The position numbers and the translations under genes are program-made. Below, piece after piece: positions 23,394 through 53,571 of a stretch of 64,000 nucleotides of DNA. The stretch lies in the NCBI GenBank assembly GCA_963699235.1, contig OY969424.1:1850964-1914963 (forward strand), in the 5' to 3' direction. Origin of the DNA: an uncultured Chloroflexia bacterium (GTDB lineage Bacteria > Chloroflexota > Limnocylindria > QHBO01). The notes beneath the pieces are model-generated. The model ran no database searches. It saw only the letters and a program-made list of their open reading frames with translations, and had not been told where the DNA came from. Every line of letters starts with the position of its first letter. Within the stretch, counting starts at the first letter, position 1.

Positions 23394-24674
23394 CTACTGC
23401 TCCTTGGCGACCGCCAGCGCATACCAGGAAATGACCAGGTACACGAGGTAGCCCAGGCAGCCAGCGAGGCTGAGCAAGGCAATGGTGACCACGGCGTCAG
23501 CATCGGTCCAGGCCGCCACCGGGACGACCGACAGGATCAGGCTCACCCGGAGGATCTCCCGGATGAGGTGCAGATCCAGGCGCTCCAGCACCCCCAGCAC
23601 CGAGCCCGTGGGAGCCGTTGCGAATTGCAAGAGGAACATCGGCGTCAGCAACGTGAAGTAGATGCCGGCCTCTGCCCATTCGGGCCCAAACACGAAGGGG
23701 AACACGAACGGTGCGAGGACCGCTCCCAGGAGGGCTGGGACGATTCCGACCTTGAGCAATCGCCTCCAGGTAGCAGCAAACAGGAGCCGGAGACGCGGAA
23801 TGTCAGTGGCCATGCGAGCCGCTTCGGCCAGGAAAACCTGGCCGGTCGCGACGCCGATCAGGGCCGTCGGCAGGCCCGCCACGCGCGCCACCAGAAGATA
23901 CAGACCACCGACCGTTGGTCCGTAGACCGCGACGAGCAGCAAGATGGGCAGCTCAAGTCCGAGTGCGTCCAGGAGCGATGAAATGTTGGTGTACATCGGA
24001 AACCGTCGGTAGCGAACCGCTACCGCCCTGAGATCCGGCAGCCTGACCTTTCGCAGTTCGGCGGCGTCTTGTCTCCACAGCTCACCGCCCAGGCGAACTG
24101 TTCCCCCCGTACGTCCGATCACGTCTCCGAGGAGCAAGCCGAGCCCGCCGCCGATTCCGGACAGCGCGAGCTGGAAGCCAACAAGACCCACGCCCTGGAT
24201 CAATCGGGTACGGGCGATTGCGGCAAACTGCCGCGCCCGGACAGCCCACGTGGAGACGACCATGTACGCCGCGGCGCCAAATTGACCGATGACGATGACC
24301 CACAGGAAGGGCGCCAGCGCCTGTGCATTGAGCATTTCCAGGAGAGGTGCTCCAAAGAAGCCGAGCACCATCGCCGTCATCGCGCAGGTGATCACGGAGA
24401 GCGACAGGCTCAGCACGACGACGGCGGCCGTTTGCGCTTGTGAGTCGGGAAGTGCAATGGCCCGGTGATAGCCGAGTGGCGTCACGACCGCCAGGATCGA
24501 GATGAGCGAGGCGGCGGCGCCGTAGATCCCGAATTCGCCCGGCTCGTAGAGCCTGGTGATGAGCGGCGACGCGAGGACGATGACCGCCTGTCCGAACGCG
24601 GTCCCACCCGCCAGGATAGCTACGTTTCGAGAAAACTCGTCAGGCGACCAGCGCCGCTTGACCCACCCGATCAT
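23394..24674 (-). CDS. Wzx-like flippase (MOP/PST superfamily), copy 2
   Basis: 426 aa and polytopic. The N-terminus LAGGTAFGQAVIVLASPLITRLYEPGEFGIYG parallels copy 1. Its stop abuts the deacetylase start. Confidence 0.8.
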   Translation of the reverse strand: MIGWVKRRWSPDEFSRNVAILAGGTAFGQAVIVLASPLITRLYEPGEFGIYGAAASLISILAVVTPLGYHRAIALPDSQAQTAAVVVLSLSLSVITCAMTAMVLGFFGAPLLEMLNAQALAPFLWVIVIGQFGAAAYMVVSTWAVRARQFAAIARTRLIQGVGLVGFQLALSGIGGGLGLLLGDVIGRTGGTVRLGGELWRQDAAELRKVRLPDLRAVAVRYRRFPMYTNISSLLDALGLELPILLLVAVYGPTVGGLYLLVARVAGLPTALIGVATGQVFLAEAARMATDIPRLRLLFAATWRRLLKVGIVPALLGAVLAPFVFPFVFGPEWAEAGIYFTLLTPMFLLQFATAPTGSVLGVLERLDLHLIREILRVSLILSVVPVAAWTDADAVVTIALLSLAGCLGYLVYLVISWYALAVAKEQ

Positions 24675-26035
24675 GCCGTCGAGCTGGCGCGTGGGCTCAG
24701 GCCGGATTCGCTACCCGCGGGAGCGGGCGCGCACAGCAGGAGGAAGAGCAATCCCCAGAGCATGCGTTCCTCGTAGAGCGCCCCGCTGACAAGCGCATTC
24801 AGCGCAAAGAAGACCACGAGAACACGGATCGCGACCCAGGGCGCCGTTCGGGCAGTGGGCGCCACGAACGCGAGCACCACGACCGACAACGCGAGGATGA
24901 CACCCACGATTCCAAGTTCGGCTCCGAATTGGAGGAGCGTGTTGTGTGGATACTCATGTCCGAAGAAGGTGATCGATTCGCGGGCCAGGCCGGCGAACCC
25001 GCCCGTCCCGATCCCGAGCAGAGGGTTATCGACGAACGTCGACCAGGCGAGCCCGAACAGACCCACTCTCGTACCAATCGAGCCGCCGTCGCTGGTATCG
25101 CCCCCGATCGCCGAGAACAGGAGGCCGAAGCGCTCGAGTGAGGCTGAGGGCAGGAGGCTTGACTCGGCCAGCACTACGCCGACCGTCAGCACCCCGATCG
25201 CGGCGATGACCGCAATTCTTCGGAGGGCCACACGGCGGATGGCGAGGCTCACGAGCAGAAGTCCGATCGTCGCCGCGAAGATCAGGAGCGGAGCTCTGGA
25301 CCCCGTGGCCACTGCGCCGTAGACGCCGACGGGGACCAGCAGCAGTACCAGCCAGCTCTCGCGCCGCGTGGTCACGAGGAAGTAGACAACCCCAATGAGG
25401 GGGAGCAACAGGAGGGCGCGCGCCGACTGAATCGTGTTCTCCTGCAGCAGCTGCAGCCGTTGGTCACCGCCAAGGCCCGGTGTTTGAATTGCGGCGAGGC
25501 CGATCGCGACCAGACTCAACAGGGCAATCGTGCCGAGGAACTGAGCCAGATACCTGGGCTTCATCGCAATCCGCGGCACTGCCATGAGCGGGGCAACGAC
25601 CAGGAGCCACCACTGCCCGACAAGCCCGATCGCTCGCGACTGATCCTGCGCATAGAGCGCGCCAGCCGTGATGGATGCTCCCAACGCGAGCCACACGAGG
25701 AGGCCGCGGGTCGTCAGACCGATTTCTCGGTAGCGGAAGAGCGCGAAGATCTGCACCGCGTTGAGAACGGCCAACAGAACGGTGAAATCGATGGGAAGCC
25801 AGGGCTGGACGGCGGCTTTATAGATGGGAATGAGAAGGTAGGCGGCCAGCAGGACTCCCGGCAGCCACACAACAGCAACGCCCAGGAAGAGACCCGCGAG
25901 AAGGGTGAGCAGCACCGGCTGTGGCATGAAGATCGCGGCAATCCCGACGATGTAGCCGGTCAGCAGCACGCCAGCCCATGTCAACGCTGTCCATGGGCGT
26001 TTTCCGGGGGCGGCAGCAGGCGAGGCTTCGGTCAT
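24671..26035 (-). CDS. O-antigen ligase/polymerase-family membrane protein (Wzy_C-type)
   Basis: About 12 TM helices. The loop region TGSRAPLLIFAATIGLL is typical of Wzy_C proteins. The ATG at 26035 forms an ATGA overlap with the asnB-like stop. ATGA also links it to the flippase at 24671-24674. Confidence 0.75.
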   Translation of the reverse strand: MTEASPAAAPGKRPWTALTWAGVLLTGYIVGIAAIFMPQPVLLTLLAGLFLGVAVVWLPGVLLAAYLLIPIYKAAVQPWLPIDFTVLLAVLNAVQIFALFRYREIGLTTRGLLVWLALGASITAGALYAQDQSRAIGLVGQWWLLVVAPLMAVPRIAMKPRYLAQFLGTIALLSLVAIGLAAIQTPGLGGDQRLQLLQENTIQSARALLLLPLIGVVYFLVTTRRESWLVLLLVPVGVYGAVATGSRAPLLIFAATIGLLLVSLAIRRVALRRIAVIAAIGVLTVGVVLAESSLLPSASLERFGLLFSAIGGDTSDGGSIGTRVGLFGLAWSTFVDNPLLGIGTGGFAGLARESITFFGHEYPHNTLLQFGAELGIVGVILALSVVVLAFVAPTARTAPWVAIRVLVVFFALNALVSGALYEERMLWGLLFLLLCAPAPAGSESGLSPRASSTA

Positions 26036-27966
26036 GAGCGAAGGACTGCCTGTTCGTCCTCGCCGCGATCGAACTGGGTCCGAAGCCAGACCTCGAGAAC
26101 GATCAGGCGCCACAGGAGCGCTCCGTCGGAACCGTTCCGTGGTCGAAGCAGCCGATCGATCTCAGATTGCGCGACCCAGGCACGCTGAACCACGTGCCCT
26201 CCGTTCAGGAGCGGTGCAGTCACAGCGGAAGCAGCGGCGAGCCATTGGCCTTGCGGTGTCGCAAATCCGACCTTGTCCTTCCGATCCAGGATGAGGTCTG
26301 GCAGGCGACCTTTCATGGCCACTCTCAGGATGTGCTTGGTGCTGCCACCGGAGATCCGGAGTCGATCGGGCAGCTTGAGGGCGAACTCGACCAGACGATA
26401 GTCGAGAAATGGGACTCGACTCTCAATGCCGAAGGCCATGCTGTTGCGATCCTCGTATCGAAGGAGCGCAGGCAGCATCTCGCTGGTGGAGTCCTGCCAG
26501 AGCCGACGCGCGAGCGGTGTTCCCCCGTATTGGTGGACCGAGGCCAGCGTCGGTTCTCGCGCAAGCTGAGGGGCAATCCGCACCCCAAACGCGCCCCGGG
26601 TCGCCGCGCGGACGCGCTCGTTCACGCCTTCGGGGACCAGGCCACGAATGACGCCGCGCAACGCGCGCCGCCGCGTCAACACGCCCGCTGCGATCGACCG
26701 CTGATACTCGCCGGCAGCTGTGCCAAGCGCGCCGGTACGCGAAAGCCCGGCGACGCGGTATCCCAGGTAGGGGAGATACCCGCCGAGCAGTTCGTCAGCA
26801 CCTTGACCGTCGAGCAGGACCTTGAGGCCGCGCTCGTGAGCCGCCTGCATGACGGTCCACTGAGCAAACACCGATGAGCCGGCAAACGGCTCGCCCTGTG
26901 CCGACAAGACCGTGGTCAGTCGCGCCAGAAACGGCTCCATAGGGACCGAGCTGAAGACCATTTCCATTCCCGCTGCGTGCCCGGCCAGCTGGGCATACCG
27001 CGACTCGTCGACCCCCTGGTCCGGGTACCGAGCGTGGAACGCATAGCGCGGCTGCTGTTCGTTCGTCCGCGTACGGCCGGGGGTCGGGGAAAGAACGCCC
27101 GCGGTCGTTCCCACAATTGCCGATGAATCCAGACCCCCGGACAGGCAGGACCCGATCGGCACATCGGCACGGAGCCGCAGGCGCACAGAATCATCGAAGA
27201 GCGAGAGGAACTCCTCGACGAGGCGCGTATCCGACCGCTCGGTGGGAGGTGAGGCCGGTGTGGCGTCGTCGCTCAGCCCGCTCGGACTCCAGTAGCGGGT
27301 CAGGCGCTCACCACCCGCCTCGACGACAAGGCTGTGTGCGGGCGGCAGTGCTGTGATCCCGGCGTAGAACGTATGGGCCGAATGGTCGAGCAGGCCTCGG
27401 GCGAGGAAGTCACGGACCGCTCCGAGATCCGGCTCGGCGCGCCACGCATCGCTCGAATCCAGCGGCGCAGCCGCGATCAAGGCAGACACTTCGCTGGCGA
27501 ACGCGAGCGTCGATCCTGACCGGCGGAGGTACAGGGGTTTCACGCCCATCCGGTCCCGCGAGAGCCACAGCCTTCTCTGCTCGACATCCCACAACGCGAA
27601 CGCCCACATGCCGTTGAATCGCTTGACCGCCTCGGTCCCCCACGCCAGGTAGGCGGCCAGAATCACCTCGGTATCGGTACCCGTCTCGAAGCGAAATCCC
27701 ATGCGAGCGAGCTCTGCTGCCAGCTCGACGTAGTTGTAGATCTCCCCGTTGTGAACAAGCCACGCGTGGCGTCGGCGCATTGGCTGCGCTCCAGCAGCCG
27801 ATGGATCCAAGATCGAAAGCCGAGCGTGGACGAGGGCCACCCTCTCCTCGTGGAACTGTCCCGAACCATCGGGGCCGCGGTGAGCGATTCGTCCGGCCAT
27901 CCGCTCCGCGACGGAGACATCGACGGCACCTCCGCCGAGGCTGACAAGGCCCGCGATTCCGCACAC
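26032..27966 (-). CDS. Glutamine-hydrolysing asparagine synthase-family amidotransferase (AsnB/WbpS-like)
   Basis: MCGIAG (N-terminal Cys nucleophile), HRGPDG and the SGGLDSS PP-loop; 644 aa. Confidence 0.9.
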   Translation of the reverse strand: MCGIAGLVSLGGGAVDVSVAERMAGRIAHRGPDGSGQFHEERVALVHARLSILDPSAAGAQPMRRRHAWLVHNGEIYNYVELAAELARMGFRFETGTDTEVILAAYLAWGTEAVKRFNGMWAFALWDVEQRRLWLSRDRMGVKPLYLRRSGSTLAFASEVSALIAAAPLDSSDAWRAEPDLGAVRDFLARGLLDHSAHTFYAGITALPPAHSLVVEAGGERLTRYWSPSGLSDDATPASPPTERSDTRLVEEFLSLFDDSVRLRLRADVPIGSCLSGGLDSSAIVGTTAGVLSPTPGRTRTNEQQPRYAFHARYPDQGVDESRYAQLAGHAAGMEMVFSSVPMEPFLARLTTVLSAQGEPFAGSSVFAQWTVMQAAHERGLKVLLDGQGADELLGGYLPYLGYRVAGLSRTGALGTAAGEYQRSIAAGVLTRRRALRGVIRGLVPEGVNERVRAATRGAFGVRIAPQLAREPTLASVHQYGGTPLARRLWQDSTSEMLPALLRYEDRNSMAFGIESRVPFLDYRLVEFALKLPDRLRISGGSTKHILRVAMKGRLPDLILDRKDKVGFATPQGQWLAAASAVTAPLLNGGHVVQRAWVAQSEIDRLLRPRNGSDGALLWRLIVLEVWLRTQFDRGEDEQAVLRS

Positions 27967-28199
27967 CGTGGCTTACCCGCCGCCGGTCAGTGGGGCAGCT
28001 CAGCGACCGATCGTCGCCTGCGATTGGCGGCTCGATGTCGAGACCAGCCGTCGGGCTCCCGCTCCTCGTGAGTGTCGCCGACCATGGCACACACTCTACT
28101 TCCCTCACGCGTGAGCCGATAAGGTGCCAGCCCGGCATCGCTTCTGACCCGGGTAGCATGGGGTGGTGACCCCGCAGCGACGCCTCGTCCACACCGAGC

Positions 28200-29434: not shown

Positions 29435-31534
29435 TCAGAGCTGGCCGGCCACGACCTCCAGGAAGTCCCACTGGGCGGCAAACTCGGGCGACGGGCCCTG
29501 CGAGGTGGCGATGATCCCCACCGCCAACGGCTGCGCGCCGCTCGTCCACGCGTCCGGGACGGTGCGGCCACCCAGCCCGGCCGTGAAGCCACGCTTGGTT
29601 GCCCCGCCGTCCAGCGAGTAGTACGGCAGGTACGTGTCAGCATCGGTCTCGACGAAGAGGTAGAGATCGACGCAGGCGGCGGCGAGAATCTCGGTGTCCG
29701 TCTTGGTCGCGATCCCGACGCCATCCCCGTTCACCTCGCGGGCGTCATGGACGGCCCCGTTCGCGGATCCCTTGACCGTGGCCTTGACGTAGTCGTCCTG
29801 GTCGCCGGCCCCGAGGAAGATCCCGACCGAGGCGAAGTCCGACATCGGGTACGGCCCACAGACCCGGCCGTGGACGGTGAAGTCGGAGACCGGCGTCGTG
29901 ACGTTCACCTGGAATCCGTTGCGCTGGGTGTTGTCGCCGTTGAAGGCGTCGCCTTCGGTGACTCCCGGGACGTTGAAGCGGCCACCGCTGGGGCCAACCG
30001 TGGCGCCATCGAACTGGGTGAGCGACGGGGTGACCGAGTTCGTCATGAGGCCGGTGAAGCCCGCGTCCTCGATTCCCCCGGCACCGCCGTCGAACGAGAG
30101 GGCGAACGGGATGGTCAGGCCTGACGCATTCGAGCTGTCGGTGGCAAAGGCGTCGCACTCATCGGGGATGGTGTCGCCGTCGGTGTCACTCGCGCTGGCG
30201 ACGACGGTCAGGCTGACGGTGCCGATGTCCTGGCCTCCGAGCGGGTCTGACACCGTGTAGGTGAAGCTGTCGGCCCCGGTGTATCCCCCGTCAGGGACGT
30301 ACCGGACGAGGCGTGGGACGTCCACGCCGTTGATCTTGTGGGTGAGGATCGTGGCCGTTCCATGCGGCGGGTTCGACACGCTCGCGATGGACAGCAGGCC
30401 GCCCTCGGGATCGGTGTCGTTGTTCAGGACGCGGTACTGCCATGAGCAGCCGGCCCGGACATTGCCCAGGTTGTCGTTGACGGCGTTCGGCAGCTGGTTG
30501 CCGCTCCCGACGTAGGCGCCGAGCGCGTTTTCGACCCCGGTCGAGACGACACCGGTCCCACCGGCCACCACGATCGCGTCGGGGTCGAGCCGATCGAGCT
30601 CGGCGGCGGTCTCGGCCGGGATGCTGTTCTGCTGCACGAGGAGCACCGGGCCGCCGTTGTCGGCCGCTGCCGGTCCGGCAGCGAGGGCATCCGGGAAGCC
30701 GAGCCCGTTCGCGACATAGACCAGGCTCACGCCAGGGCTGAAGTTCGCCGCGCTGATGGCGGCGGCGGTGGCGAAGCGGTTCGCGCCAGCCTGGCGGGTC
30801 ACGCTGCCGGTGGTGTACGGGTCGAGGGCGGCTTCCATCGTGGCGGCAACCACGCCGGTGCCCCCGGCGATGACGATCGCGTCAGGGTTCAGCCGGTCGA
30901 GCTCAGCGGCCGTCTCGGTCGGGATGGTGTTCTGCGTGACGAGCAGGACGGGACCGCCGTTGTCCGCGGCTGCCGGCCCGGCGGCGAGGGCATCGGGGAA
31001 TCCGAGGCCATTGGCGACGTAGACGATGTTCACGCCGGGGCTGAAGTTCGCGGCGCTGATGGCGGCGGCGGTCGCAAAGCGGTTCGCGCCGGCCTGGCGG
31101 CTGACGTTGCTCGAGTACGTTTCGAGCTGGGTCTCGACCGCGGGCGACACCACGCCGGTTCCGCCGGCCACCACAATGGCATCGGGGTTCAGGCGATCGA
31201 GCTCGGCGGCGGTTTCGGCGGGGATGTTGTTCTGGTTGACGAGGAGGACGGGACCGCCGTTATCGGCGGCTGCCGGCCCGGCGGCCAGGGCATCGGCGAA
31301 GCCGAGACCGTTGGCGACGTAGACGATGTTCACACCGGGGCTGAAGTTCGCGGCGCTGATCGCGGCAGCGGTCGCGAAGCGGTTCGCGCCGGCCTGGCGG
31401 GTCACGCCCGCCACGGCGGCGACGGTGCTCACCGGAAGGGACGAGACGGCGATGAGGCCGGCCAGGAAGAGGAGCAGGTGCCGAGATCGGCGGTGTTGTC
31501 CGGAGGTCGCGGCCGGCGCAGTGAGGCTAGGCAA
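29435..31534 (-). CDS. Secreted wall-anchored protein A: signal peptide, 3x CWB2 repeats, cadherin-like Ig domain, Ca-binding DxDxD motif and a C-terminal lectin/ConA-like beta-sandwich
   Basis: There are three ~100-aa repeats: RQAGANRFATAAAISAANFSPGV..VYVANGLGF.DALAAGPAAADNGGPVLLV.QN.IP.ETAAELDRL.PDAIV.AGGTGVV. Then VNDNL...VLNNDTDPEGGLLSIASVSNPPHGTA...GADSFTYTVSD (cadherin-like) and DTDGDTIPDECD. The C-terminal ~230 aa is shared with protein B. Likely TTG start at 31534. Confidence 0.85.
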   Translation of the reverse strand: MPSLTAPAATSGQHRRSRHLLLFLAGLIAVSSLPVSTVAAVAGVTRQAGANRFATAAAISAANFSPGVNIVYVANGLGFADALAAGPAAADNGGPVLLVNQNNIPAETAAELDRLNPDAIVVAGGTGVVSPAVETQLETYSSNVSRQAGANRFATAAAISAANFSPGVNIVYVANGLGFPDALAAGPAAADNGGPVLLVTQNTIPTETAAELDRLNPDAIVIAGGTGVVAATMEAALDPYTTGSVTRQAGANRFATAAAISAANFSPGVSLVYVANGLGFPDALAAGPAAADNGGPVLLVQQNSIPAETAAELDRLDPDAIVVAGGTGVVSTGVENALGAYVGSGNQLPNAVNDNLGNVRAGCSWQYRVLNNDTDPEGGLLSIASVSNPPHGTATILTHKINGVDVPRLVRYVPDGGYTGADSFTYTVSDPLGGQDIGTVSLTVVASASDTDGDTIPDECDAFATDSSNASGLTIPFALSFDGGAGGIEDAGFTGLMTNSVTPSLTQFDGATVGPSGGRFNVPGVTEGDAFNGDNTQRNGFQVNVTTPVSDFTVHGRVCGPYPMSDFASVGIFLGAGDQDDYVKATVKGSANGAVHDAREVNGDGVGIATKTDTEILAAACVDLYLFVETDADTYLPYYSLDGGATKRGFTAGLGGRTVPDAWTSGAQPLAVGIIATSQGPSPEFAAQWDFLEVVAGQL
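30500..31405 (-). repeat. Three tandem ~300-nt intragenic repeats encoding the CWB2 modules of protein A
   Basis: ATGTTCAC(G/A)CCGGGGCTGAAGTTCGCGGCGCTGAT... recurs on the + strand at 31026 and 31326 (period 300). A slightly diverged copy lies near 30726. Confidence 0.85.
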
Positions 31535-31600
31535 TGGAAGTTCCCTTCAGGCTCTTCGTGAGAGGCAGGAGTCGGTCAGGTAGTACAGCTGGGAGGCGGC

Positions 31601-33418
31601 TCACAGGTGACCTGGAGCCACTTCCAGCAGATCGAAGGTGGCGGTGAACTCGGGAGCCGGCCCGGCTGAGGACAGCCACAGCCCCACGGCCATCGGCTGG
31701 GAGCCGTTGATCCACGAAGCGGGGACCGTCCGAAGCGCGCCGTTGCCGCCCAGGCCGAGACGCGTCGTGCCCCCGTTGAGCGAATAGCTCGGGCTGTACG
31801 TGAGCGTCGAGGTGTTCACGTGGAGGTACAGCTCGATGCATGACGCGGCGGGGATGTTGTTGTCGATGTGGGTGGCGATGCCGGCACCCACCCCACCCAC
31901 TTCGCGGGCGTCGTGCACTGACGGTCCGAGCGCCTCGCCCTTGAGGGTGATCTTGATGTAGTTGTCCTGACCCAGATCGTTACCGGGTCCGAAGAAGACC
32001 CCGGCCGAAGCGAACTCCTCGGTCGGGTACGACGCGGAGCCGCAGATCCGGCCGTGGACGGTGAAGGTGCTGACCGGGGTCGTCACGTTCACCTGGAACC
32101 CGTTCTCCAGGGTGTTCGTGGCATTGAGCGCGTCTCCCGGGCCGATGTTCTGGAGGCGGAACATGCCGCCGGTGATCGAGACGTCGCCAGGGTTGTACAG
32201 CGACATGGTCGAGGTGGTCCCGTTCCTCATGAGGCCGGTGAAACCGGTGTCCTCGATGCCACCGCCGCCACCGTTGAAGCTCAGGGCAAACGGCAGGGTT
32301 CGCCCGGTGGCGTTCGACGGATCGCACGCGAAGGAATCGTTCGTGTCATTGATGCCGTCACCGTCGGTGTCAGGCGGCGCGGCGACGCAGTTGATGAACT
32401 GCACGAGCTGCTGCTCGACCGCGGAGCAGACGACGCCGGTGCCGCCGGCGATGATGATCTCGTCCGGGTTCAGGCGGTCGAGCTCGGCCGCCGTCTCGGA
32501 CGGGATCGAGCACTGGTTGACGAGGAGGAGCGGACCGCCGCGCTGGGCGGCGGCCGGCCCGGCGGCCAGGGCGTCGGGGAAGCCCAGGCCGTTCGCGATG
32601 TAGACCGCATTCACGCCGGCGCCGAACGTCTGGTTCGAGATGGTCGCGGCAGTGGCGAATCGGTTCAACCCCGCCTGGCGGGTCACGCTGCCGGAGGTGA
32701 AGGCATCGAGCGACGTCTCGACCGAGGCTGACACGACTCCGGTTCCGCCGGCGACGATGATCTCGTCCGGGTTCAGGCGGGTGAGCTCAGCGGCGGTGTC
32801 GGCCGGGATCGCGTTCTGCGTGACGAGGAGGACCGGGCCGCCGAGGTCGGCAGCCGCCGGACCGGCCGCCAGGGCGTCCGGGAAGCCCAGGCCGTTCACG
32901 ATGTAGACCGCGTTCACGCCGGGGTTGAAGTTCGCGGCGCTGATGGCCGCCGCGGTCGCGAATCGGTTCGCGCCGGCCTGGCGGGTCACGCTGCCGGTAG
33001 TGAAGGCATCGAGCTGCGCCTGGACCGAGGCCGACACGACCCCGGTGCCGCCGGCGACGATGATCTGGTCGGGGTTGAGCCGGTTGAGCTCCGCTCCCGT
33101 CTCGCTCGGAATCGAGTTCTGGTTCACGAGGAGGACCGGGCCGTTCAGGTGGGCTGCGGCGGGTCCAGCGGCCAGGGCATCGGCGAAGCCCAGCCCGTTC
33201 ACGATGTAGACCGCGCTGACCCCGGGGTTGAACGTGTTCGCCGAGATCGCCTGCGCGGTCGCGAAGCGGTTCACGCCGGCCTGGCGGCTGACGCCGGTGG
33301 CCGCCAGGGCGTTCGTCGGGAACGCCTGGACGATGAGCATGACGATCAGGATCGGAGCCAGCCGGGCGGTCTTCCGCGCCGAGGTCCGACCGCCGAGGGC
33401 ACGACGGCGGTGGGTCAC
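31601..33418 (-). CDS. Secreted wall-anchored protein B: signal peptide, 3x CWB2 repeats, DxDxD Ca-binding motif and a C-terminal lectin/ConA-like domain
   Basis: GTG start at 33418 with a GGGGAG SD. It has three CWB2 repeats (RQAG.NRFATA.AIS...VYI.NGLGF.DALAAGPAAA..GGP.LLV.Q..IP..TAAEL.RLNPD.II.AGGTGVV), then DTDGDGINDTND. The C-terminal domain is a paralog of that in protein A (LPFALSF.GG.GGIED.GFTGLM...ENGFQVNVTTPVS.FTVHGR.CG). Confidence 0.85.
   Translation of the reverse strand: MTHRRRALGGRTSARKTARLAPILIVMLIVQAFPTNALAATGVSRQAGVNRFATAQAISANTFNPGVSAVYIVNGLGFADALAAGPAAAHLNGPVLLVNQNSIPSETGAELNRLNPDQIIVAGGTGVVSASVQAQLDAFTTGSVTRQAGANRFATAAAISAANFNPGVNAVYIVNGLGFPDALAAGPAAADLGGPVLLVTQNAIPADTAAELTRLNPDEIIVAGGTGVVSASVETSLDAFTSGSVTRQAGLNRFATAATISNQTFGAGVNAVYIANGLGFPDALAAGPAAAQRGGPLLLVNQCSIPSETAAELDRLNPDEIIIAGGTGVVCSAVEQQLVQFINCVAAPPDTDGDGINDTNDSFACDPSNATGRTLPFALSFNGGGGGIEDTGFTGLMRNGTTSTMSLYNPGDVSITGGMFRLQNIGPGDALNATNTLENGFQVNVTTPVSTFTVHGRICGSASYPTEEFASAGVFFGPGNDLGQDNYIKITLKGEALGPSVHDAREVGGVGAGIATHIDNNIPAASCIELYLHVNTSTLTYSPSYSLNGGTTRLGLGGNGALRTVPASWINGSQPMAVGLWLSSAGPAPEFTATFDLLEVAPGHL
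32385..33292 (-). repeat. Three tandem ~300-nt intragenic repeats encoding the CWB2 modules of protein B
   Basis: GCGAA(T/G)CGGTT(C/A)...GCCTGGCGG(G/C)T(C/G)AC blocks recur near 32650, 32950 and 33255 on the + strand. Confidence 0.8.
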
Positions 33419-33642
33419 GATTCTCCCCTCAGATGAGTGCGAGATGAACGATGTGGGCCGAGCGGGCGTATCAGTGGGCCGGAGGACCGTGCGGGCCGAA
33501 GCCCGCGGATGACGGAACGCGATCCTCCTCTGACTCAGCCTGCCGAGACTGCGTGCGGGACCTTAGCCCGTTTGGGCTATTCGTGTCTAGGACCCATGCC
33601 GTCGAATCGGTGCGAAGTGTGCCCACCGTCAACACTTCTTGA

Positions 33643-34803
33643 TCACGCGGGAGGAATTCCGGGTAATGGGACCCGGGCCGGCACCAGGCCTTCCGCCCGA
33701 AGCTCCCGCCACAGGTCGAGCGGGATGTCGCGGGTGAAGTGCGCCACGTTCTCCTCGAGCTCTGCGGCGGAGCGGATCCCGGCAAGGACTGAGCCCACCG
33801 CGGGGTGGCCGAGCGGGAACTGGATGGCGGCAGCCGCCAGCGGGACGCCGTGGCGGGCACAGACCTCCTGCATCTGAAGGGCACGCTCCAGCGGAGCGGC
33901 GTTGCGACCCACGGCGCGATAGTCGAACGAGGCGCCAGGCTGCGGGTTGGCCAGGATGCCGCTGTTGAAGACGCCGCCGACGTTGACGGTCATCCCCCGC
34001 TCGGCCGCCGTGGGCAGGAGGTCGTCGAGCCCGGTCTGGTTGAGCAGGGTGTACCGGCCGGCCAGCAGGAAGGTGTCGAACGCCGCTTCCTGGGCGAACC
34101 GGGTGAGCATGGCGGACTGGTTCATCCCCACTCCGATCGCCGAGACCGAGCCTTCGGACCGCAGCTGGTCCAGCGCCCGGAATGCTCCCGATAGCGCCTG
34201 GTCATAGTCGTGATCCGGGTCGTGGATGTAGAGCATGTCGACCCGGTCCACGCCAAGTCGACCAAGGCTCTCCTCAACGGAACGCATGACCCCGTCGTAG
34301 CTGAAGTCGAAGTAGGCGTCGAGCGCCCGCTCATCGCCCCGGTCAAAGGGGAACCCGAGGGGGTAGGTAGGATCGCGCCCGACCACCCGGCGCCCCATCC
34401 GGGTCGCATGCCGCCAGATGAGACCGGGGCCGCGCTCCGGCCCGCTGACCGACTGGTGCAGGACGTGGGCGATCTTGCGCCCGGTGGATACGCGGCGGAG
34501 GAGCCGCCCGACCTTGGTGGCCAACACGAAGTCCGCTCGCGGAAGGCCCGCGATGCCGGCGCCGACCCGGGTCTCGGCCAGGCCGGACCCGTACTGCGGG
34601 GCCGTGTCCAGCAGTCGGACGCCGAGCCGGTGCGCGGTGCGGATGACCGCCTCGGCCTCCTCGTCTTCGATGAGCCCCATCATGTTGCCGAGCGGGACGG
34701 TCCCCACCCCCAGTCGAGGGGCGAACAGATCGGTTGACCCGACCCGGGCGGTCCCCACCATCCCCGCGGCTCCAGCGGTCCCAGGGGTTCGTTCGGTCGT
34801 CAT
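33643..34803 (-). CDS. Aldo/keto reductase family oxidoreductase
   Basis: LGVGTVPLGNM, AHRLGVRLLDTAPQYGSG, VLATKVG and VDMLYIHDPD are AKR signatures. The protein is 386 aa and carries an insertion after the ATKVG strand. Confidence 0.85.
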   Translation of the reverse strand: MTTERTPGTAGAAGMVGTARVGSTDLFAPRLGVGTVPLGNMMGLIEDEEAEAVIRTAHRLGVRLLDTAPQYGSGLAETRVGAGIAGLPRADFVLATKVGRLLRRVSTGRKIAHVLHQSVSGPERGPGLIWRHATRMGRRVVGRDPTYPLGFPFDRGDERALDAYFDFSYDGVMRSVEESLGRLGVDRVDMLYIHDPDHDYDQALSGAFRALDQLRSEGSVSAIGVGMNQSAMLTRFAQEAAFDTFLLAGRYTLLNQTGLDDLLPTAAERGMTVNVGGVFNSGILANPQPGASFDYRAVGRNAAPLERALQMQEVCARHGVPLAAAAIQFPLGHPAVGSVLAGIRSAAELEENVAHFTRDIPLDLWRELRAEGLVPARVPLPGIPPA

Positions 34804-34807: not shown

Positions 34808-35212
34808 CTAAACCACGGTCACGGTGGTGAGCTCGCCGACCAGCATCACCAGGCCGGGCAGGAGTGCCACCGCGATGAGGGCCACCCGCGCCGGCCATTC
34901 ATACGGTGCCATGGCGATCGCCGCGACGGTGAACACCACGAGCACGGTGACGACGAGCGCGGGCGCCCAGAGCCCCATGTAGAGAAGGACGGTCGCCACC
35001 AGCAGGTCGATCGTCAGGCTGAGCGGAACGACCAGGGCGACGCGCGTCAGGCGGTCGGTGATGCCAGTCAGCCACAGGAGTGCGACACCCGGACCAACGA
35101 GCAGGAAGCCGGCCACGAGGATCTCGCGGAACGGAAACTGCTCGGAGCCGATCGCGATTGCGGCGGCCAGCCCAAGGGCCGGGATCAACAGGTGGACTGG
35201 GCGCAGCTTCAT
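34808..35212 (-). CDS. Small 4-TM membrane protein (hypothetical)
   Basis: 134 aa and almost entirely hydrophobic. The ATG at 35212 overlaps the stop of the upstream large membrane protein (ATGA). Confidence 0.6.
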   Translation of the reverse strand: MKLRPVHLLIPALGLAAAIAIGSEQFPFREILVAGFLLVGPGVALLWLTGITDRLTRVALVVPLSLTIDLLVATVLLYMGLWAPALVVTVLVVFTVAAIAMAPYEWPARVALIAVALLPGLVMLVGELTTVTVV

Positions 35213-37089
35213 CGGACCTCCGGCGGGGGGAACTCGGTGATGTGGTACACCGCGCCGTCGCGGTTCTCGAAGATGAGCTCTCCGGCGGCGGCCACCCTGG
35301 CATGCCGTTGGGCGAACGCTTCCGCGCTCATGTTCCAGAACAGCTCGGCGAAGGCGACCTGGCCGCGGGTCACGACGAAGTAGGTCTGCTGGCCCGGCGG
35401 CGTCCGGTTCAGCAGCTCGCGGAGCAGATCCTCGATGTGGCCCTCTTCGAACTCGTCACCGACGTTGACGACGTTGTGCTGCTCCCATTCGAAGTACCCC
35501 AGTGGCACCGAGTGGTTGGCCTCCCCGATCGTGTCGCCCTCCTGGGCCAGGTCCGACGTGAACTCGAGCAGCTGGTACTCCTCCAGCGTCACGAAGTCGG
35601 CCTTCTCGTTGCCAAAGCGACTGAACAGCATGAAAAAGGCGAAGACGATGGAGACCCCCACGAGCAGGACGTCGAGCCTCCAGGAGGCCGGTCGCATCGA
35701 CGGGAAGAACGCCGCAGCCAGGAAGAACGCCATGAACGGCAGGGAGAAGAGGTACACCCGCAGCAGCATCTCGCCGCCGTAACCCTGGAGGAAGACGAGC
35801 CCGAAGGGCGCGACCGCCAGTAGGGCCAGGGTCAGGTCCAGGTTCCCCGCCCGGAGGCGACGGAGCCCCCCGATGAAGGCGATCAGCCAGACGCCGATGG
35901 TCAGCCCCAGGCGCACCTGGAGGACGAACAGGTGCCCATCACTCCCGCTGAACCGGTCCAAGGTGCTGGCGGTGACAACGGTGCCCACCTGGCCGATGTC
36001 TTCCAATAGGCCGGCGAGGTGGCCGGTCAGGTAGGTGGTCGCCATGAACAGGAGCCAGCTGCTGAGGAGCACCATCATCAGGACCGGCAGACCGGTGAGC
36101 CGGATCCGGTTGAAGACCGTCAGGCCGATCACGCCGCCGAGCATCGCGAAGGGCGTGAGCTGATGGCTTGCCACCGACGCCCCGAAGAGGGCGACCACCA
36201 CGGCCACCAGTCCGATCTGCTGGCGCTCCGACATCGCCCACTCCCCCAGCGGCTCCAGTGCCCCGGCCGGGTCGACGGTGAGCCGACGGAAGCGGCCGGG
36301 CGCGAACCGACTGGCCGATGACCAGAATCGCCCGCTCCACGTGTCGGACCCCGGCCCCTGGCGGAACCAGGAGAGGAGGACCGCGGTGACCGAGAGCATG
36401 ATCAGGATGTTGAACGCCTGGGGCGAGAAGTAGTCCTGGCCCACCCAGTTGACCAGGTAGAACATCCAGATGGCGAGCCACATGTGGCGCGGGTCGGACG
36501 TCGCCGACCGCATGATCAGGTACAGGGGCGCCAGGTACAGCAGCATGATCACCGGCGGAATCCAGGACAGGATCGGCAGGAGATCCTCGAATCCGGTCGC
36601 CGTCGAGAACAGCGCCGCCAGGGTGAAGAAGGCCGGCCAGTCGAACCGCGCGTCGTCGAGCGGGAACAGCTCACCGGTCCGCGCTATGGCATCGCTGAAC
36701 CCGACGTGGAGCCAGGCGGTGGGGAATCGCGGCATGTCCTCGAGGAACGCCGGAGCGCCGTACAGCATCACGGCGAGGGCGACCACGTGAACCACCAGGA
36801 CAGCGCTGGGCGGTGGTCGCATCCGGAGGGCCACGAAGAATGACGCCGCCAGGAGCCCGATGAAGACGAAGGCGTACGGCGGCATGACGGAGATGAGACC
36901 CCGGTCATCCATCCGTCGCGGGTCCAGCCCACTGACGACGGCGATCCATCCGATCGTCGCCAGGACGGCGATGCCCGAAAGCGCAAACCCGATCCAGGCG
37001 CGGCGACTCGGACTCCATCTGGCGGGCACGAGTCGACGTCGCATGGAGCCGGGGGCACCCGGTTTCAGCGGATCGACATGGTTCTCCAC
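35209..37089 (-). CDS. Large polytopic membrane protein with a C-terminal soluble domain; GT-C-fold glycosyltransferase candidate
   Basis: 626 aa with roughly 13 predicted TM helices. There is an acidic motif right after TM1 (DPRRMDDRGL). A ~130-aa hydrophilic C-terminus follows (FVTLEEYQLLEFTSDLAQEGD...). The coding call is solid, but the family call is inference from architecture only. Confidence 0.6.
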   Translation of the reverse strand: MENHVDPLKPGAPGSMRRRLVPARWSPSRRAWIGFALSGIAVLATIGWIAVVSGLDPRRMDDRGLISVMPPYAFVFIGLLAASFFVALRMRPPPSAVLVVHVVALAVMLYGAPAFLEDMPRFPTAWLHVGFSDAIARTGELFPLDDARFDWPAFFTLAALFSTATGFEDLLPILSWIPPVIMLLYLAPLYLIMRSATSDPRHMWLAIWMFYLVNWVGQDYFSPQAFNILIMLSVTAVLLSWFRQGPGSDTWSGRFWSSASRFAPGRFRRLTVDPAGALEPLGEWAMSERQQIGLVAVVVALFGASVASHQLTPFAMLGGVIGLTVFNRIRLTGLPVLMMVLLSSWLLFMATTYLTGHLAGLLEDIGQVGTVVTASTLDRFSGSDGHLFVLQVRLGLTIGVWLIAFIGGLRRLRAGNLDLTLALLAVAPFGLVFLQGYGGEMLLRVYLFSLPFMAFFLAAAFFPSMRPASWRLDVLLVGVSIVFAFFMLFSRFGNEKADFVTLEEYQLLEFTSDLAQEGDTIGEANHSVPLGYFEWEQHNVVNVGDEFEEGHIEDLLRELLNRTPPGQQTYFVVTRGQVAFAELFWNMSAEAFAQRHARVAAAGELIFENRDGAVYHITEFPPPEVR

Positions 37090-38145: not shown

Positions 38146-39060
38146 CTAGAGGTCGTACCCATACCGCAGGAGCAGCGGCCACGTCAGCAGCGTGACCTGC
38201 GTCCGCGGCCAACGCGGGAACTGCTCCTGCCAGGCCATGTCGGCCTTCAGCGCCAGCGGGCCGCTCGACATCCGCATCGGGTTCCCCATCACGGTGTGGT
38301 TCGGCGCCAGGGTCACCGTCCCGTCGCCGATGAACCCGAAGTCGTCAGCTCCAAGCCGGTAGCCCAGCGCACCGAGGGCGCGGACGAGCTCCTCCCGCGG
38401 ACGCTGGGTGAACGTCTCGTAGCGGAGCCGGGAGATGGGCACCCGGCGGCCGAGGAGCTCGATGAAGGCGTTGTGAGCCATCCAGCGGGCGGAGGCGCCG
38501 ATCGGACCCAGGCGCAGCATGGCGACCCGCCGGCCGGGCGTGTCCGGTCGGAGGACCTCCTTCGTCCAGGAGAAGGCGACCCCCCGGCTGTCGCGGACGA
38601 GGTGGACGGTCCGGAAGTCGATGCCGGGAAGCGAGCTGACGACGAGGCCGTACCGCGGATCCTTGGACGAGTCCACGATGGTGGCTCCGTCCGAGACCTC
38701 GTCGATGCCGGCGTAGAGCCGGGTCAGGAGGTCGATGAGCCGCGGATCGGCGTTGGCCGCGGCCGACGACCGCGAGAGCACCCGGCGCAGGGCACGCGAG
38801 TGGGTCAATGACGCGAGCTCCGATTCGGCCCATTCGGGGTCCACCGTGTCCCAACCACCGAAGGCGGCTTCGCCCACCCGGCTCCAGAACGGACAGGCGC
38901 GGAAGGGCTCGCCACACCCGCAGAGCCGGTTCTCGATCAGGCCCGCGAGCCAGATGGTCCGCATCTCCCCGGTCGAGACGTAGCCCGGCACCTGGCCGAT
39001 GATGCGATCGACCAGCGTGGAGCCGCTGCGGCCGGTGCCGCCGACGAACAGGACGCCCAC
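38146..39060 (-). CDS. Sulfotransferase (PAPS-dependent, Sulfotransfer_3/Stf-like type)
   Basis: 5'-PSB loop VGGTGRSGSTLV, IVDSSKDP and HLVRDSRGVAFSW (3'-PB region). I prefer the GTG at 39060, just downstream of the upstream gene's stop (39063-39065). The 5' part of the track ORF is an out-of-frame read of that gene. Confidence 0.8.
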   Translation of the reverse strand: MGVLFVGGTGRSGSTLVDRIIGQVPGYVSTGEMRTIWLAGLIENRLCGCGEPFRACPFWSRVGEAAFGGWDTVDPEWAESELASLTHSRALRRVLSRSSAAANADPRLIDLLTRLYAGIDEVSDGATIVDSSKDPRYGLVVSSLPGIDFRTVHLVRDSRGVAFSWTKEVLRPDTPGRRVAMLRLGPIGASARWMAHNAFIELLGRRVPISRLRYETFTQRPREELVRALGALGYRLGADDFGFIGDGTVTLAPNHTVMGNPMRMSSGPLALKADMAWQEQFPRWPRTQVTLLTWPLLLRYGYDL

Positions 39061-39062
39061 GC

Positions 39063-40403
39063 TCAGTCGGGTGACTCGTCGACGATCGGGTCCGGGATGG
39101 GCCCATAGAACTGGACCTCGCTGCCCGGCTCTTCGAGGAACGGCGCGACCTGGTAACCGCCGTTGGACGTGACCGGACCGACGTGGATGTCCTGCGCCAG
39201 GGAGCCGAACTGGATGAGGTACGGGTTGCCGTCGTCGCCCTTCCCGAACGCCAGGCCGTTCAGGAGCACGCTGCCGGTCTCCTCCGTACCGTGGACCCCG
39301 AGCATGATGTGGGCCGCGCTCGTCCCGTTCGGATTGTCGTTGTCGGCGAAGGTGTCGCCCACGACGGTGAACCCGCTGCCTCCCTCGATGCTGAGACCGC
39401 CGGACCGGTTGCCTTCCCACTTGTTGCTGTTGAGGCGAGTCCGGACGCAGCCGGGCTGGAGGCGGATGCCCACACCCTGGTTGTTGTAGGCGTGGTTGAG
39501 CCGATACATCTGGGAGGCCCCCCGGCTGAGGAACCCATCCCCCTCGTTGCGGAACACGATGTTGCCCTCGATCAGCATGTCCCCGGCACGCTCGTCGTGG
39601 AGAATCCCGATGCCGAGGCCGTCGAAGACACGGTTGAACAGCACGTAGCCATCGTACGGACGGCTTCCGGTTGAGACCCCGGCAAACCGGATTCCGACCC
39701 CGCCGGACTGGGTGACCGCGTTCAGCGTCACCGTCGGCCGGGTGGCCTCCACTTCGATCCCCTGCGCCCGCTCGGCGCCGTCGACGTGGATCAGGCTGAT
39801 GAGCGTGCCGTAGGCATCCTCGGTGGCCCGGACCAGGAACTCCCCGTCGGGGAAGCTGGGACCGGGGACGATCTGCGAGCCCAACGCCGCTTCGGCGTAT
39901 CCCTGCCCGTTCCCGACGTTCATGCCCACCAGGGCCAGGCCATCCCCGGAGATGACGATCGGGGCGTTCAGCTCGAACCGGCCGCCGAGGAGCCGAACCT
40001 GCCCGCCCCCGACGCGCTCGAGGTCGATCAGCGCGGCGTTGATCTCGTCCTCGGCCGAGCCCTCGACCACGATGTCGGCCCGCTCGCGGTCGGCGCCGGA
40101 CGAGTTGGAGGCGGCAATGAGGGTGTCACTGCCGTCGGGAACATCGGGCGGGTACCAGACCGCCCCATCCAGGTTTGGGTCACCGGTTCCCGGCCCACCG
40201 ACCCCCGGTGTCGCGGACGGCGCCGGGCCGCTCGCGGAGGGAACGGCCGGAGTGGAGCTGGGAGATGCCGGGCGCGGGGTCGGTGACGAGTCGGCAGAGT
40301 CGTCGATCACCCGCCACGCGAGCGCCAGGGCGCCGACGAGGGCAACGGCCACGAGGCCACCGAGCACCAGCTGGCGTCTTCGCGATCGGGGCTCGATGCT
40401 CAT
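39063..40403 (-). CDS. Signal-anchored right-handed beta-helix repeat protein (pectate-lyase fold)
   Basis: The ATG at 40403 gives MSIEPRSRRRQLVLGGLVAVALVGALALA, then a Pro/Ser linker. Repeated rungs follow (GVGIRFAG, GIGILHDE, IEGNIVFRN, GVGIRLQPG, LNSNKWEGN, LSIEGG, VVGDTFADN). Confidence 0.75.
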   Translation of the reverse strand: MSIEPRSRRRQLVLGGLVAVALVGALALAWRVIDDSADSSPTPRPASPSSTPAVPSASGPAPSATPGVGGPGTGDPNLDGAVWYPPDVPDGSDTLIAASNSSGADRERADIVVEGSAEDEINAALIDLERVGGGQVRLLGGRFELNAPIVISGDGLALVGMNVGNGQGYAEAALGSQIVPGPSFPDGEFLVRATEDAYGTLISLIHVDGAERAQGIEVEATRPTVTLNAVTQSGGVGIRFAGVSTGSRPYDGYVLFNRVFDGLGIGILHDERAGDMLIEGNIVFRNEGDGFLSRGASQMYRLNHAYNNQGVGIRLQPGCVRTRLNSNKWEGNRSGGLSIEGGSGFTVVGDTFADNDNPNGTSAAHIMLGVHGTEETGSVLLNGLAFGKGDDGNPYLIQFGSLAQDIHVGPVTSNGGYQVAPFLEEPGSEVQFYGPIPDPIVDESPD

Positions 40404-40673
40404 TCGCGGCCGTCGGGAAAGGGGCTCGGGGGCGTGGGCATGACGGCCATTGTTACGGCAGCAGCGCCCCCTGTCACATCGCCCCACCGAAGCGGCGGTG
40501 TCAGCCGGAGCCTGGGCAATCGGTGACAGCGTGCACCGGACCTGCCTCCCGGGTGCGCTGGCCCCATCGTCATGGCTCGATGGGGCCCGAACCCCCGGGG
40601 ACCATCGACCGATGGGCTTTCCATGAACCGGCGGTCAGTCTGGCGGCAACCCCCCAACGGAAGGATGCGCCCT

Positions 40674-53565: not shown

Positions 53566-53571
53566 GGCGGC

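What the first reader, a model, noticed from the sequence alone, without database searches (positions are those of the whole stretch)
29435..33418. Tandem paralogs: 3xCWB2 wall-binding modules fused to a shared lectin-like C-terminal domain
Both proteins have a signal peptide and exactly three ~100-aa CWB2-type repeats. Both then have a thrombospondin-type DxDxD calcium motif (DTDGDTIPDECD / DTDGDGINDTND) and a ~230-aa C-terminal beta-sandwich-like domain that is conserved between them (LPFALSF.GG.GGIED.GFTGLM ... FQVNVTTPVS.FTVHGR.CG ... EFAAQWDFLEV). Protein A additionally has a cadherin-like Ig domain. I cannot assign the C-terminal domain to a named family from memory. It may be a new glycan-binding or glycan-processing module displayed on the wall.
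Basis: partly seen in the sequence, partly recalled or inferred. Interest (0 to 1): 0.65.

Follow-up and report, generated by a model that had tools for sequence, protein, structure and literature searches.

The report
Wall-anchored proteins with unnamed lectin-like domain
Two neighbouring genes of a probable Limnocylindria (Chloroflexota) bacterium encode secreted proteins that should attach to the cell wall through three CWB2 repeats and display a calcium-motif-capped, concanavalin-like beta-sandwich; that domain belongs to a large family no curated database has named, and it most likely binds sugars.

Summary
ORF A (29435-31534, minus strand, 699 aa) and ORF B (31601-33418, minus strand, 605 aa) are tandem paralogs. 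Each has a signal-peptide-like N-terminus, exactly three CWB2 repeats (Pfam E 4e-55) and a shared C-terminal module of about 250 aa (55% identity). A also has a Big_9/cadherin-like Ig domain.

No Pfam, NCBIfam or PDB sequence passes threshold on the C-terminal module. It is not rare, though. An exhaustive profile search finds about 2,800 cluster representatives. About 70% of the best 151 carry a GSDH-like beta-propeller just upstream. Others carry SLH, T9SS, RTX, malectin or Kelch modules, or a transmembrane TIR.

The DxDxDGxxDxxD (thrombospondin type 3) motif is an integral cap, conserved in at least 95% of members. A confident AlphaFold model (pLDDT 92) is a ConA-like jelly roll. It is closest to the non-catalytic C-terminal domain of GH43 xylosidases and to DUF1349 (TM about 0.6, 12-16% identity). 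There is no GH16-type catalytic motif.

The genes sit inside a roughly 40-kb surface-glycan biosynthesis island.

Best reading: Cwp-like, non-covalently wall-anchored lectin or carbohydrate-binding proteins. Function is inferred, not shown. This is a new variant of a known kind, of moderate interest.

The parts
31409..31534 (-). Protein A, signal-peptide-like N-terminus (aa 1-42: basic RRSRH, hydrophobic LLLFLAGLIAVSSLPV, then VAA/AVA)
   Evidence: Read from the translation; RBS. No dedicated predictor was run.
30500..31405 (-). Protein A, three tandem CWB2 repeats (aa 44-345)
   Evidence: PF04122 E 4.1e-55, 3 stretches. Aligns with the Cwp6 and Cwp8 triads. The repeats are 81-86% identical to each other.
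30197..30499 (-). Protein A only: Big_9 / cadherin-like Ig domain (aa 346-446), probably a spacer
   Evidence: PF17963 E 1.4e-17; PF17803 and PF17892 also hit.
30125..30187 (-). Protein A, thrombospondin-type-3-like calcium motif that caps the C-terminal domain (aa 450-470, DTDGDTIPDECDAFATDSSNA)
   Evidence: D450, D452, D454, D461, F463 and D466 are conserved in 94-99% of 109 non-redundant family members. pLDDT is 86-93 in the model.
29438..30124 (-). Protein A, ConA-like beta-sandwich of an uncurated family (aa 471-699); stop codon at 29435-29437
   Evidence: AF2 pLDDT 92, pTM 0.91. Foldseek: GH43 C-terminal domain and DUF1349, E 1.6e-8 and TMq 0.58-0.64. The family has about 2,800 representatives.
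33302..33418 (-). Protein B, signal-peptide-like N-terminus (aa 1-39: RRR..R..RK..R, LAPILIVMLIVQAF, then ALA|A)
   Evidence: Read from the translation; RBS GGGGAG.
32390..33292 (-). Protein B, three tandem CWB2 repeats (aa 43-343)
   Evidence: PF04122 E 4.2e-55, 3 stretches; repeat identities.
32309..32371 (-). Protein B, TSP3-like calcium motif cap (aa 350-370, DTDGDGINDTNDSFACDPSNA)
   Evidence: Aligned with the motif in A and in the family.
31604..32308 (-). Protein B, ConA-like beta-sandwich (aa 371-605); stop codon at 31601-31603
   Evidence: 55% identical to the domain of A; profile score 414 bits.

Best explanation
A and B are secreted, non-covalently wall-anchored surface proteins of the C. 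difficile Cwp type, in a probable Limnocylindria (Chloroflexota) bacterium. After Sec export and signal-peptide cleavage, the three CWB2 repeats fold into one pseudo-threefold module. That module holds the protein on a secondary cell-wall glycopolymer, probably the one made by the surrounding glycan-biosynthesis island. The C-terminal module points outward; in A an Ig-like Big_9 spacer extends it. The module is a thrombospondin-type-3 calcium-binding cap fused to a ConA-like jelly roll, and it acts as a calcium-stabilised ligand-binding (lectin or CBM-like) domain, not as an enzyme. Two diverged copies (55% identity in this domain) would give two specificities or allow antigenic variation.

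Shown here: the gene structure, the domain composition, the fold, the size and architectures of the family, and the genomic context.

Inferred, not shown: export, wall binding, calcium binding, and above all glycan binding and its specificity.
For: - CWB2 triads pass Pfam thresholds by a wide margin and align with the solved Cwp6, Cwp8 and SlpA triads. CWB2 triads bind the wall polymer PSII in C. difficile (reviews PMC5817068 and PMC8559796).
- The fold is a confident ConA-like jelly roll. Its nearest structures are the non-catalytic C-terminal sandwich of GH43 beta-xylosidases and DUF1349 (3mep), followed by GH16 enzymes, legume lectins and a phage Dit CBM. Weak sequence hits go to the same two Pfam families.
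- There is no E.D..E-type motif, and only one invariant glutamate in the family.
- Every family context examined is extracytoplasmic or surface-associated: CWB2, SLH, T9SS tail, RTX, malectin, LamG, GH115_C, PKD/Ig and Kelch modules.
- In two proteins the domain is the ectodomain of a single-pass membrane protein with a cytoplasmic TIR domain. That is a sensor-like use.
- The cysteine pair C559/C621 is present together in 22 family members and absent together in 348, which suggests a disulfide and so an extracellular fold.
- The genes lie inside an island of GT4 and GT2 glycosyltransferases, Wzx, Wzy, AsnB, sulfotransferases, RmlC and heptose-pathway-like genes. Synteny is kept in related metagenome contigs.
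Against: - No ligand, calcium binding, localisation or expression was or could be measured.
- The family has unusually many invariant polar residues for a plain CBM: N, Q, Q, D, Q, Y, K and E in the motifs GFTGLMxNG, NxQ, FQ, GDQDNYxK and E. That would also fit an active site.
- I could not map these residues onto the model because coordinates are not exposed.
- The CWB2 modules here are acidic (pI about 4.1-4.3), so the wall ligand need not resemble the anionic PSII.
- In about 70% of relatives the domain follows a propeller. Its ancestral role may therefore be as an accessory to an enzyme, not as a free-standing lectin.
Confidence: 0.55

Rival explanations
1. A and/or B are the S-layer subunits of this organism. 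The CWB2 triad anchors them, as in the C. difficile SlpA HMW subunit, and the calcium-capped beta-sandwich forms the lattice contacts. The domain's role would then be structural self-assembly, not ligand binding.
For: - The layout of CWB2x3 plus a variable outer domain is the same as in clostridial S-layer proteins.
- The mature proteins are acidic (pI 4.05 and 4.37) with few Lys and Cys, as is common for S-layer proteins.
- A calcium motif could mediate assembly.
- A relative carries SLH repeats plus Big_9 plus the same domain (P0014).
Against: - The SlpA equivalog model scores 45-57 bits against a cutoff of 650, and only over the CWB2 part.
- The same domain occurs singly or in tandem inside giant non-lattice-type proteins and as a TIR-receptor ectodomain. 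That argues for a generic binding module.
- There is no expression or abundance evidence.
Confidence: 0.15
2. The C-terminal domain is a glycan-processing enzyme (hydrolase, lyase or transglycosylase) of a new ConA-like catalytic family. It is tethered to the wall to remodel the cell's own wall polymer or exopolysaccharide, or to digest environmental polysaccharide.
For: - The ConA-like fold also houses GH16, GH7, GH12 and PL7 enzymes, which appear among the Foldseek hits at E around 1e-6 to 1e-5.
- Many polar residues are invariant, including E600, D529 and Q579/D580.
- C. difficile Cwps often carry enzymes.
- The genes sit in a polysaccharide island beside a GH16-like gene.
Against: - The best structural matches are non-catalytic accessory domains (GH43_C2, DUF1349), not the enzymes.
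- There is no GH16 ExDxxE motif, no Pfam GH or PL hit even at E 10, and only one invariant acidic residue in the jelly roll of 32 diverse members.
- Use of the domain as the ectodomain of TIR receptors fits sensing better than catalysis.
Confidence: 0.15
3. The domain is a protein- or cell-binding adhesin module or a structural stalk. A and B would mediate cell-cell or cell-particle attachment unrelated to carbohydrates.
For: - It co-occurs with cadherin-like, Ig, RTX and Kelch modules typical of large adhesins.
- ConA-like/LamG domains bind proteins in eukaryotic matrix proteins. Thrombospondins have the same order of TSP3 repeats followed by a ConA-like domain (PMC6526912).
Against: - It also co-occurs with malectin, LamG, GH115_C and sugar-dehydrogenase-like propellers.
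- The nearest folds are carbohydrate-enzyme accessory domains.
Confidence: 0.1

Closest known systems
Clostridioides difficile cell-wall proteins (Cwp family, e.g. Cwp6, Cwp8, SlpA HMW)
   Same: Signal peptide, exactly three tandem CWB2 repeats forming the anchor, and one variable 'functional' domain. Several paralogs are encoded side by side, next to a wall-polymer biosynthesis locus. The CWB2 triad of A aligns end to end with those of Cwp6 and Cwp8.
   Different: The host is a high-GC, probable Limnocylindria (Chloroflexota) bacterium, not a Firmicute. The three repeats within one protein are 81-86% (A) or 71-79% (B) identical, with no positional orthology between A and B. The displayed domain is a TSP3-capped ConA-like module; to my knowledge (from memory, not checked here) no C. 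difficile Cwp carries such a domain. The wall ligand is unknown.
C-terminal ConA-like domain of GH43 beta-xylosidases (Pfam GH43_C2, PF17851) and DUF1349 (PF07081; PDB 3mep)
   Same: These are the best structural matches (Foldseek E 1.6e-8 to 6e-8, TMq 0.51-0.64) and the only weak sequence matches. Both share the 'G.GDQDNY.K'-type strand motif. In most relatives of the window domain it likewise follows a beta-propeller directly.
   Different: All hits are below the Pfam gathering score (12.6 bits against 22.7 for A; best member E 0.0065). Identity is 12-16%. The window domain has an obligatory TSP3 calcium cap and its own invariant motifs (GFTGLMxNG, NxQ, FQxG). In A and B there is no propeller partner.
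Thrombospondin C-terminal cassette (TSP type 3 repeats followed by an L-type lectin-like / ConA-like domain)
   Same: The module order is the same: calcium-binding DxDxDGxxDxxD repeats directly followed by a ConA-like beta-sandwich, in extracellular proteins (PMC6526912).
   Different: I found no sequence relationship. There is no TSP_C Pfam hit at E up to 10, no thrombospondin chain in the PDB profile searches, and none in the top 50 Foldseek hits. I treat this as an analogy only.
SLH-anchored surface proteins with lectin or CBM domains
   Same: The logic is the same: a triple wall-polymer-binding repeat plus an outward-facing module. A relative (P0014) carries SLH repeats plus Big_9 plus the same C-terminal domain, so the anchors are interchangeable.
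   Different: The anchor here is CWB2, not SLH.

Membership tests
CWB2-anchored cell-wall proteins (Cwp type) | Three tandem CWB2 (PF04122) repeats | tested here: met
   Three stretches in each protein, 184.7 bits against a cutoff of 24.9. Full-length alignment with the Cwp6 and Cwp8 triads, E 5e-29 and 1e-20.
CWB2-anchored cell-wall proteins (Cwp type) | N-terminal secretion signal | tested here: met
   By inspection only: a basic n-region, a hydrophobic core of 14-16 residues and an AxA-type site in both proteins. Homologs show one N-terminal hydrophobic segment. No SignalP-type predictor was available.
CWB2-anchored cell-wall proteins (Cwp type) | A separate variable functional domain next to the anchor | tested here: met
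   C-terminal TSP3-capped ConA-like module in both proteins, plus Big_9 in A.
CWB2-anchored cell-wall proteins (Cwp type) | Non-covalent binding to a secondary wall glycopolymer | not testable with these tools
   Only context is available: the genes are embedded in a glycan biosynthesis island.
S-layer protein SlpA (NCBIfam NF033435) | Whole-protein score at or above the curated cutoff (650 bits) | tested here: not met
   45.3 and 57 bits, covering the CWB2 region only.
ConA-like lectin/glucanase fold superfamily | Two-sheet beta-jelly-roll sandwich resembling solved members | tested here: met
   AF2 pLDDT 92, pTM 0.91, 14 strands. 259 PDB matches at E<=1e-3, all ConA-like: GH43_C2, DUF1349, GH16, lectins, PL7.
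GH43_C2 (PF17851) | Pfam gathering score (22.7 bits) | tested here: not met
   12.6 bits, E 0.11 for A and no hit for B. 6 of 32 family members give sub-threshold hits, best E 0.0065.
GH16 glycoside hydrolases | Pfam PF00722 match and catalytic ExDxxE strand motif | tested here: not met
   No PF00722 hit at E up to 10. No E.D..E or E.D.E pattern in either C-terminal domain.
Bacterial TSP3 repeat (PF18884) | DxDxDGxxDxxD calcium-binding repeat passing the Pfam threshold (25 bits) | tested here: inconclusive
   The motif is present and is 94-99% conserved across the family. PF18884 gives no hit on A or B. In relatives it gives only sub-threshold hits (20-24 bits), on a repeat just upstream of the cap.
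Thrombospondin C-terminal domain (TSP_C) | Sequence or close structural match to TSP_C | tested here: not met
   No Pfam TSP_C hit, no thrombospondin chain in the PDB profile search, and none in the top 50 Foldseek hits.

The most novel reading that the evidence does not exclude
The TSP3-capped ConA-like module defines a large, so far uncurated family of calcium-dependent extracellular recognition domains. Bacteria would use it in three ways: as a wall-anchored lectin (here, on CWB2 in Chloroflexota), as the substrate-binding partner of sugar-dehydrogenase-like propellers, and as the sensing ectodomain of transmembrane TIR receptors. It might also be evolutionarily related to the TSP3-repeat plus lectin-like cassette of animal thrombospondins.
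Probability: 0.2. Interest if true: 0.6.

Novelty: new variant of a known kind. Interest (0 to 1): 0.38.

Why it matters
The finding extends the Cwp-style anchoring scheme (a CWB2 triad plus an exchangeable outer domain) from Firmicutes and Actinobacteria to an uncultured Chloroflexota lineage, where it sits next to a candidate biosynthesis locus for the wall polymer.

It also flags a widespread domain family that has a confident predicted fold but no curated model, no solved structure and no known ligand. The family has about 2,800 representatives at 50% identity, 454 of them at E<=1e-30. A and B are small two- or three-module proteins, so they are convenient for expressing this domain and determining what it binds. 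The answer would help annotate thousands of giant surface proteins and a set of TIR-linked membrane receptors.

Tried and rejected
- The word-indexed homolog search with the C-terminal domain gave only 7 hits and made the domain look very rare. The exhaustive profile search showed that was a sensitivity artefact.
- phmmer of the domain against PDB gave weak GFP-biosensor linker hits (E about 1e-3, a 'GGTGG...GEGEGDA' low-complexity stretch). I rejected them as spurious. The profile searches gave nothing.
- The first AF2 model, from 8 sequences, had pLDDT 72.6. I replaced it with the 32-sequence model. Both give the same Foldseek answer.
- The search for related loci with the alignment failed because no stretch was conserved enough. 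The single-protein scan found only three distant Actinomycetota loci, with the domain inside proteins of at least 916 to 2,013 aa and no CWB2. The window's own genome is not in that collection.
- The Foldseek search of the viral library gave only generic ConA-like tail and esterase proteins (TM up to 0.53).
- The promoter/terminator scan of 29.0-35.4 kb found no promoter-like site and one terminator-like site on the wrong strand inside gene A, which is below the shuffle expectation. The operon structure stays unresolved.
- A literature search for TSP3 + concanavalin + PQQ in bacteria returned nothing.
- The fragmentation of B in the near-identical ENA contig L004 probably reflects assembly indels, not pseudogenisation, because the neighbouring aldo-keto reductase is split there too.
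- The MutL, DAGK_cat and GATase Pfam hits inside the CWB2 repeats are sub-threshold matches to a Rossmann-like beta-alpha-beta element. I ignored them.

Full report
**Observation.** A is 29435-31534 (699 aa, TTG start) and B is 31601-33418 (605 aa, GTG start), 66 bp apart. Their GC3 values of 0.89 and 0.90 match real genes of this genome, and both starts are preceded by purine-rich ribosome-binding sites.

Pfam finds three CWB2 stretches in each protein (E about 4e-55) and a Big_9/cadherin-like Ig domain only in A, at aa 344-446. BLASTP between A and B gives 69% identity over the CWB2 region (E 7e-117) and 55% over the last 264 residues (E 4e-81). The N-termini have the charge, hydrophobic core and AxA pattern of Sec signal peptides; I judged this by inspection because no predictor was available.

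**The anchor.** The CWB2 triad of A aligns end to end with the solved triads of C. difficile Cwp6 (5j72, E 5e-29), Cwp8 (5j6q, E 1e-20) and the HMW S-layer subunit. In C. difficile a triad forms one module that binds the wall polymer PSII non-covalently (PMC5817068 and PMC8559796).

One feature stands out. The three repeats inside A are 81-86% identical to each other, and those inside B are 71-79% identical. A-to-B comparisons are 68-79% with no positional correspondence. This points to homogenisation within each gene or to independent triplication. The SlpA equivalog model reaches only 45-57 bits against a cutoff of 650, so these are Cwp-like proteins and not recognisable SlpA orthologs.

**The C-terminal module.** Neither Pfam nor NCBIfam covers the last 250 or so residues. 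The only hit is a sub-threshold GH43_C2 match (12.6 bits against 22.7). PDB sequence and profile searches find nothing real.

The word-indexed search found just 7 relatives. The exhaustive HMMER scan of 1.84 billion representatives, using the 8-sequence profile, found 2,819 at E<=1e-3 and 454 at E<=1e-30. So this is a large uncurated family.

Conservation over 109 non-redundant members shows that the motif D-x-D-x-D-G-x-x-D-x-x-D-x-F-A-x-D-x-x-N-G (aa 450-470 of A) is 94-99% conserved. It is an integral cap of the domain. Relatives carry one or two further TSP3 repeats upstream, and those get sub-threshold TSP3_bac hits.

Other near-invariant motifs are GFTGLMxNG, GDA, NxQ, FQxG, GxGDQDNYxK, a single glutamate (E600 of A), DLYL, AxGxxxTS and FxAxW. 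C559 and C621 of A co-occur in 22 members and are jointly absent in 348, which suggests a disulfide.

**Fold.** With 32 diverse family members as the alignment, AlphaFold2 gives pLDDT 92 and pTM 0.91, an all-beta sandwich of about 14 strands with an ordered cap.

Foldseek against PDB puts the C-terminal ConA-like domain of GH43 beta-xylosidases first (6ms2, 9he8, 8uws; E 1.6e-8, TMq 0.58-0.64, 12-16% identity). The DUF1349 protein 3mep follows (E 5e-8). Then come GH16 glucanases, a phage Dit CBM, legume lectins and PL7 lyases. The earlier low-confidence model gave the same answer. Scanning each of the 32 members against Pfam gives only sub-threshold GH43_C2 hits (6 of 32, best E 0.0065) and one DUF1349 hit.

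The module is therefore a new family within the ConA-like lectin/glucanase superfamily, nearest to two non-catalytic branches. There is no ExDxxE motif.

**Family contexts.** Of the 151 best representatives, 105 carry a module of about 450 aa immediately upstream of the domain. It is weakly GSDH-like or PQQ-dehydrogenase-like, all below threshold. This echoes the propeller-plus-sandwich arrangement of GH43 enzymes.

Other contexts include:
- CWB2x3 plus Big_9. These are the closest relatives, including a Candidatus Limnocylindria MAG protein that is 64% identical to A.
- SLH plus Big_9.
- T9SS sorting tails, RTX repeats, malectin, LamG, GH115_C, PKD/Ig and Kelch modules.
- Tandem arrays of up to six copies.
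- Two clusters in which a cytoplasmic TIR domain and one transmembrane helix precede the domain, a receptor-like layout.

All contexts are extracytoplasmic.

**Genome context and organism.** The window comes from a 2.09-Mb contig. Its G6PD is 93.7% identical to a Candidatus Limnocylindria (Chloroflexota) MAG protein, so the organism is probably of that class. The best named relative of A is only 64% identical, as expected for a fast-evolving surface protein.

From about 16 to 55 kb the window is a surface-glycan island:
- GT4 enzymes, an ATP-grasp protein, DUF7033, a Wzx-type flippase, a Wzy_C polymerase/ligase, AsnB-like amidotransferase and a DAO oxidoreductase on one side.
- A and B.
- On the other side, an aldo-keto reductase, two Pfam-less membrane proteins, an Rce1-like protease, a sulfotransferase, a beta-helix protein, a GH16-like protein, RmlC, an oxidoreductase, GT2, GT4 and GT2 enzymes, a second sulfotransferase, and a GHMP-kinase/epimerase/NTP-transferase-HAD/SIS set resembling a nucleotide-heptose pathway.

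The order is conserved in a JGI contig encoding P0003 and in a near-identical ENA contig. Only A and B carry CWB2 or the ConA-like domain in the window.

**Interpretation.** The best-supported mechanism is as follows. A and B are exported by the Sec pathway. The CWB2 triad anchors them non-covalently to a secondary wall polymer, plausibly the product of the flanking island. The calcium-capped ConA-like module is displayed outward and binds a ligand, most likely a carbohydrate. A holds the module further out on an Ig-like spacer. I put this at about 0.55.

The rivals are:
- S-layer lattice subunits (0.15).
- A new ConA-like enzyme family (0.15). The many invariant polar residues keep this open.
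- A non-glycan adhesin (0.1).

None of the functional steps was or could be measured here.

**Comparison and novelty.** As a system this is the known Cwp kind, in a new phylum and with an outer domain that has not been described. The domain is a new family of a well-known fold. Its obligatory TSP3 cap recalls the TSP3-repeat plus lectin-like cassette of animal thrombospondins (PMC6526912), but I found no sequence or top-ranked structural link, so I treat that as analogy.

Verdict: the finding is real and correctly described. It is a new variant of a known kind and of moderate interest (0.38). Its main value is as a tractable entry point to a large unannotated domain family.

Noticed in passing
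P0020 and P0040 (homologs; not in the window): Single-pass membrane proteins with an N-terminal cytoplasmic TIR_2 domain, one TM helix (aa 207-234 and 250-280) and the TSP3-capped ConA-like domain outside the cell. This is a receptor-like architecture linking the domain to TIR signalling.
   Followed up: partly
window 29435-33418, CWB2 repeats (A aa 44-345, B aa 43-343): Repeats within one protein are much more alike (A 81-86%, B 71-79% aa identity) than is usual for CWB2 triads. They show no positional orthology between A and B, which suggests intragenic homogenisation or independent triplication.
   Followed up: partly
window 50298-54570 (-): GHMP kinase, NAD-epimerase, NTP-transferase fused to a HAD phosphatase, and a SIS isomerase lie in a row. 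The set resembles a nucleotide-activated heptose pathway of the kind used for S-layer or wall glycans.
   Followed up: no
window 38146-39420 (-) and 49360-50490 (-): Two sulfotransferase-family genes lie inside the glycan island, hinting at a sulfated surface polymer.
   Followed up: no
window about 16000-28000: This segment holds GT4, ATP-grasp, DUF7033, Wzx, Wzy and AsnB genes. Its GC is lower (0.63-0.66) than its surroundings (0.68-0.73), and its GC3 is lower too. It may be a laterally exchanged, variable glycan cassette.
   Followed up: no
window 40572-41918 (+): A 448-aa protein with a weak GH16 match (E 1.6e-5) in its C-terminal third. In the syntenic JGI contig a GH16 gene lies beside a further 692-aa CWB2 protein.
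   Followed up: no
window 34808-37089 (-): A 134-aa and a 626-aa membrane protein with overlapping stop and start have no Pfam or PDB match. Both are conserved in synteny next to the CWB2 genes in related contigs.
   Followed up: partly
P0001 and P0002 (homologs): An extra domain of about 130 aa (TFVPLTPARLLDSR...) is inserted inside the ConA-like domain, between the first strand and the GFTGLM motif.
   Followed up: no
L004:2294-3975 (ENA contig with A 99.9% identical): Gene B and the neighbouring aldo-keto reductase are split into several short ORFs there. Assembly indels are a more likely cause than pseudogenisation.
   Followed up: partly
window 30001-34000: Positive GC skew on the + strand (0.09-0.12, against about 0 elsewhere) coincides with genes A and B. 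It presumably reflects the repeated Ala/Gly/Pro-rich CWB2 coding sequence on the minus strand.
   Followed up: no
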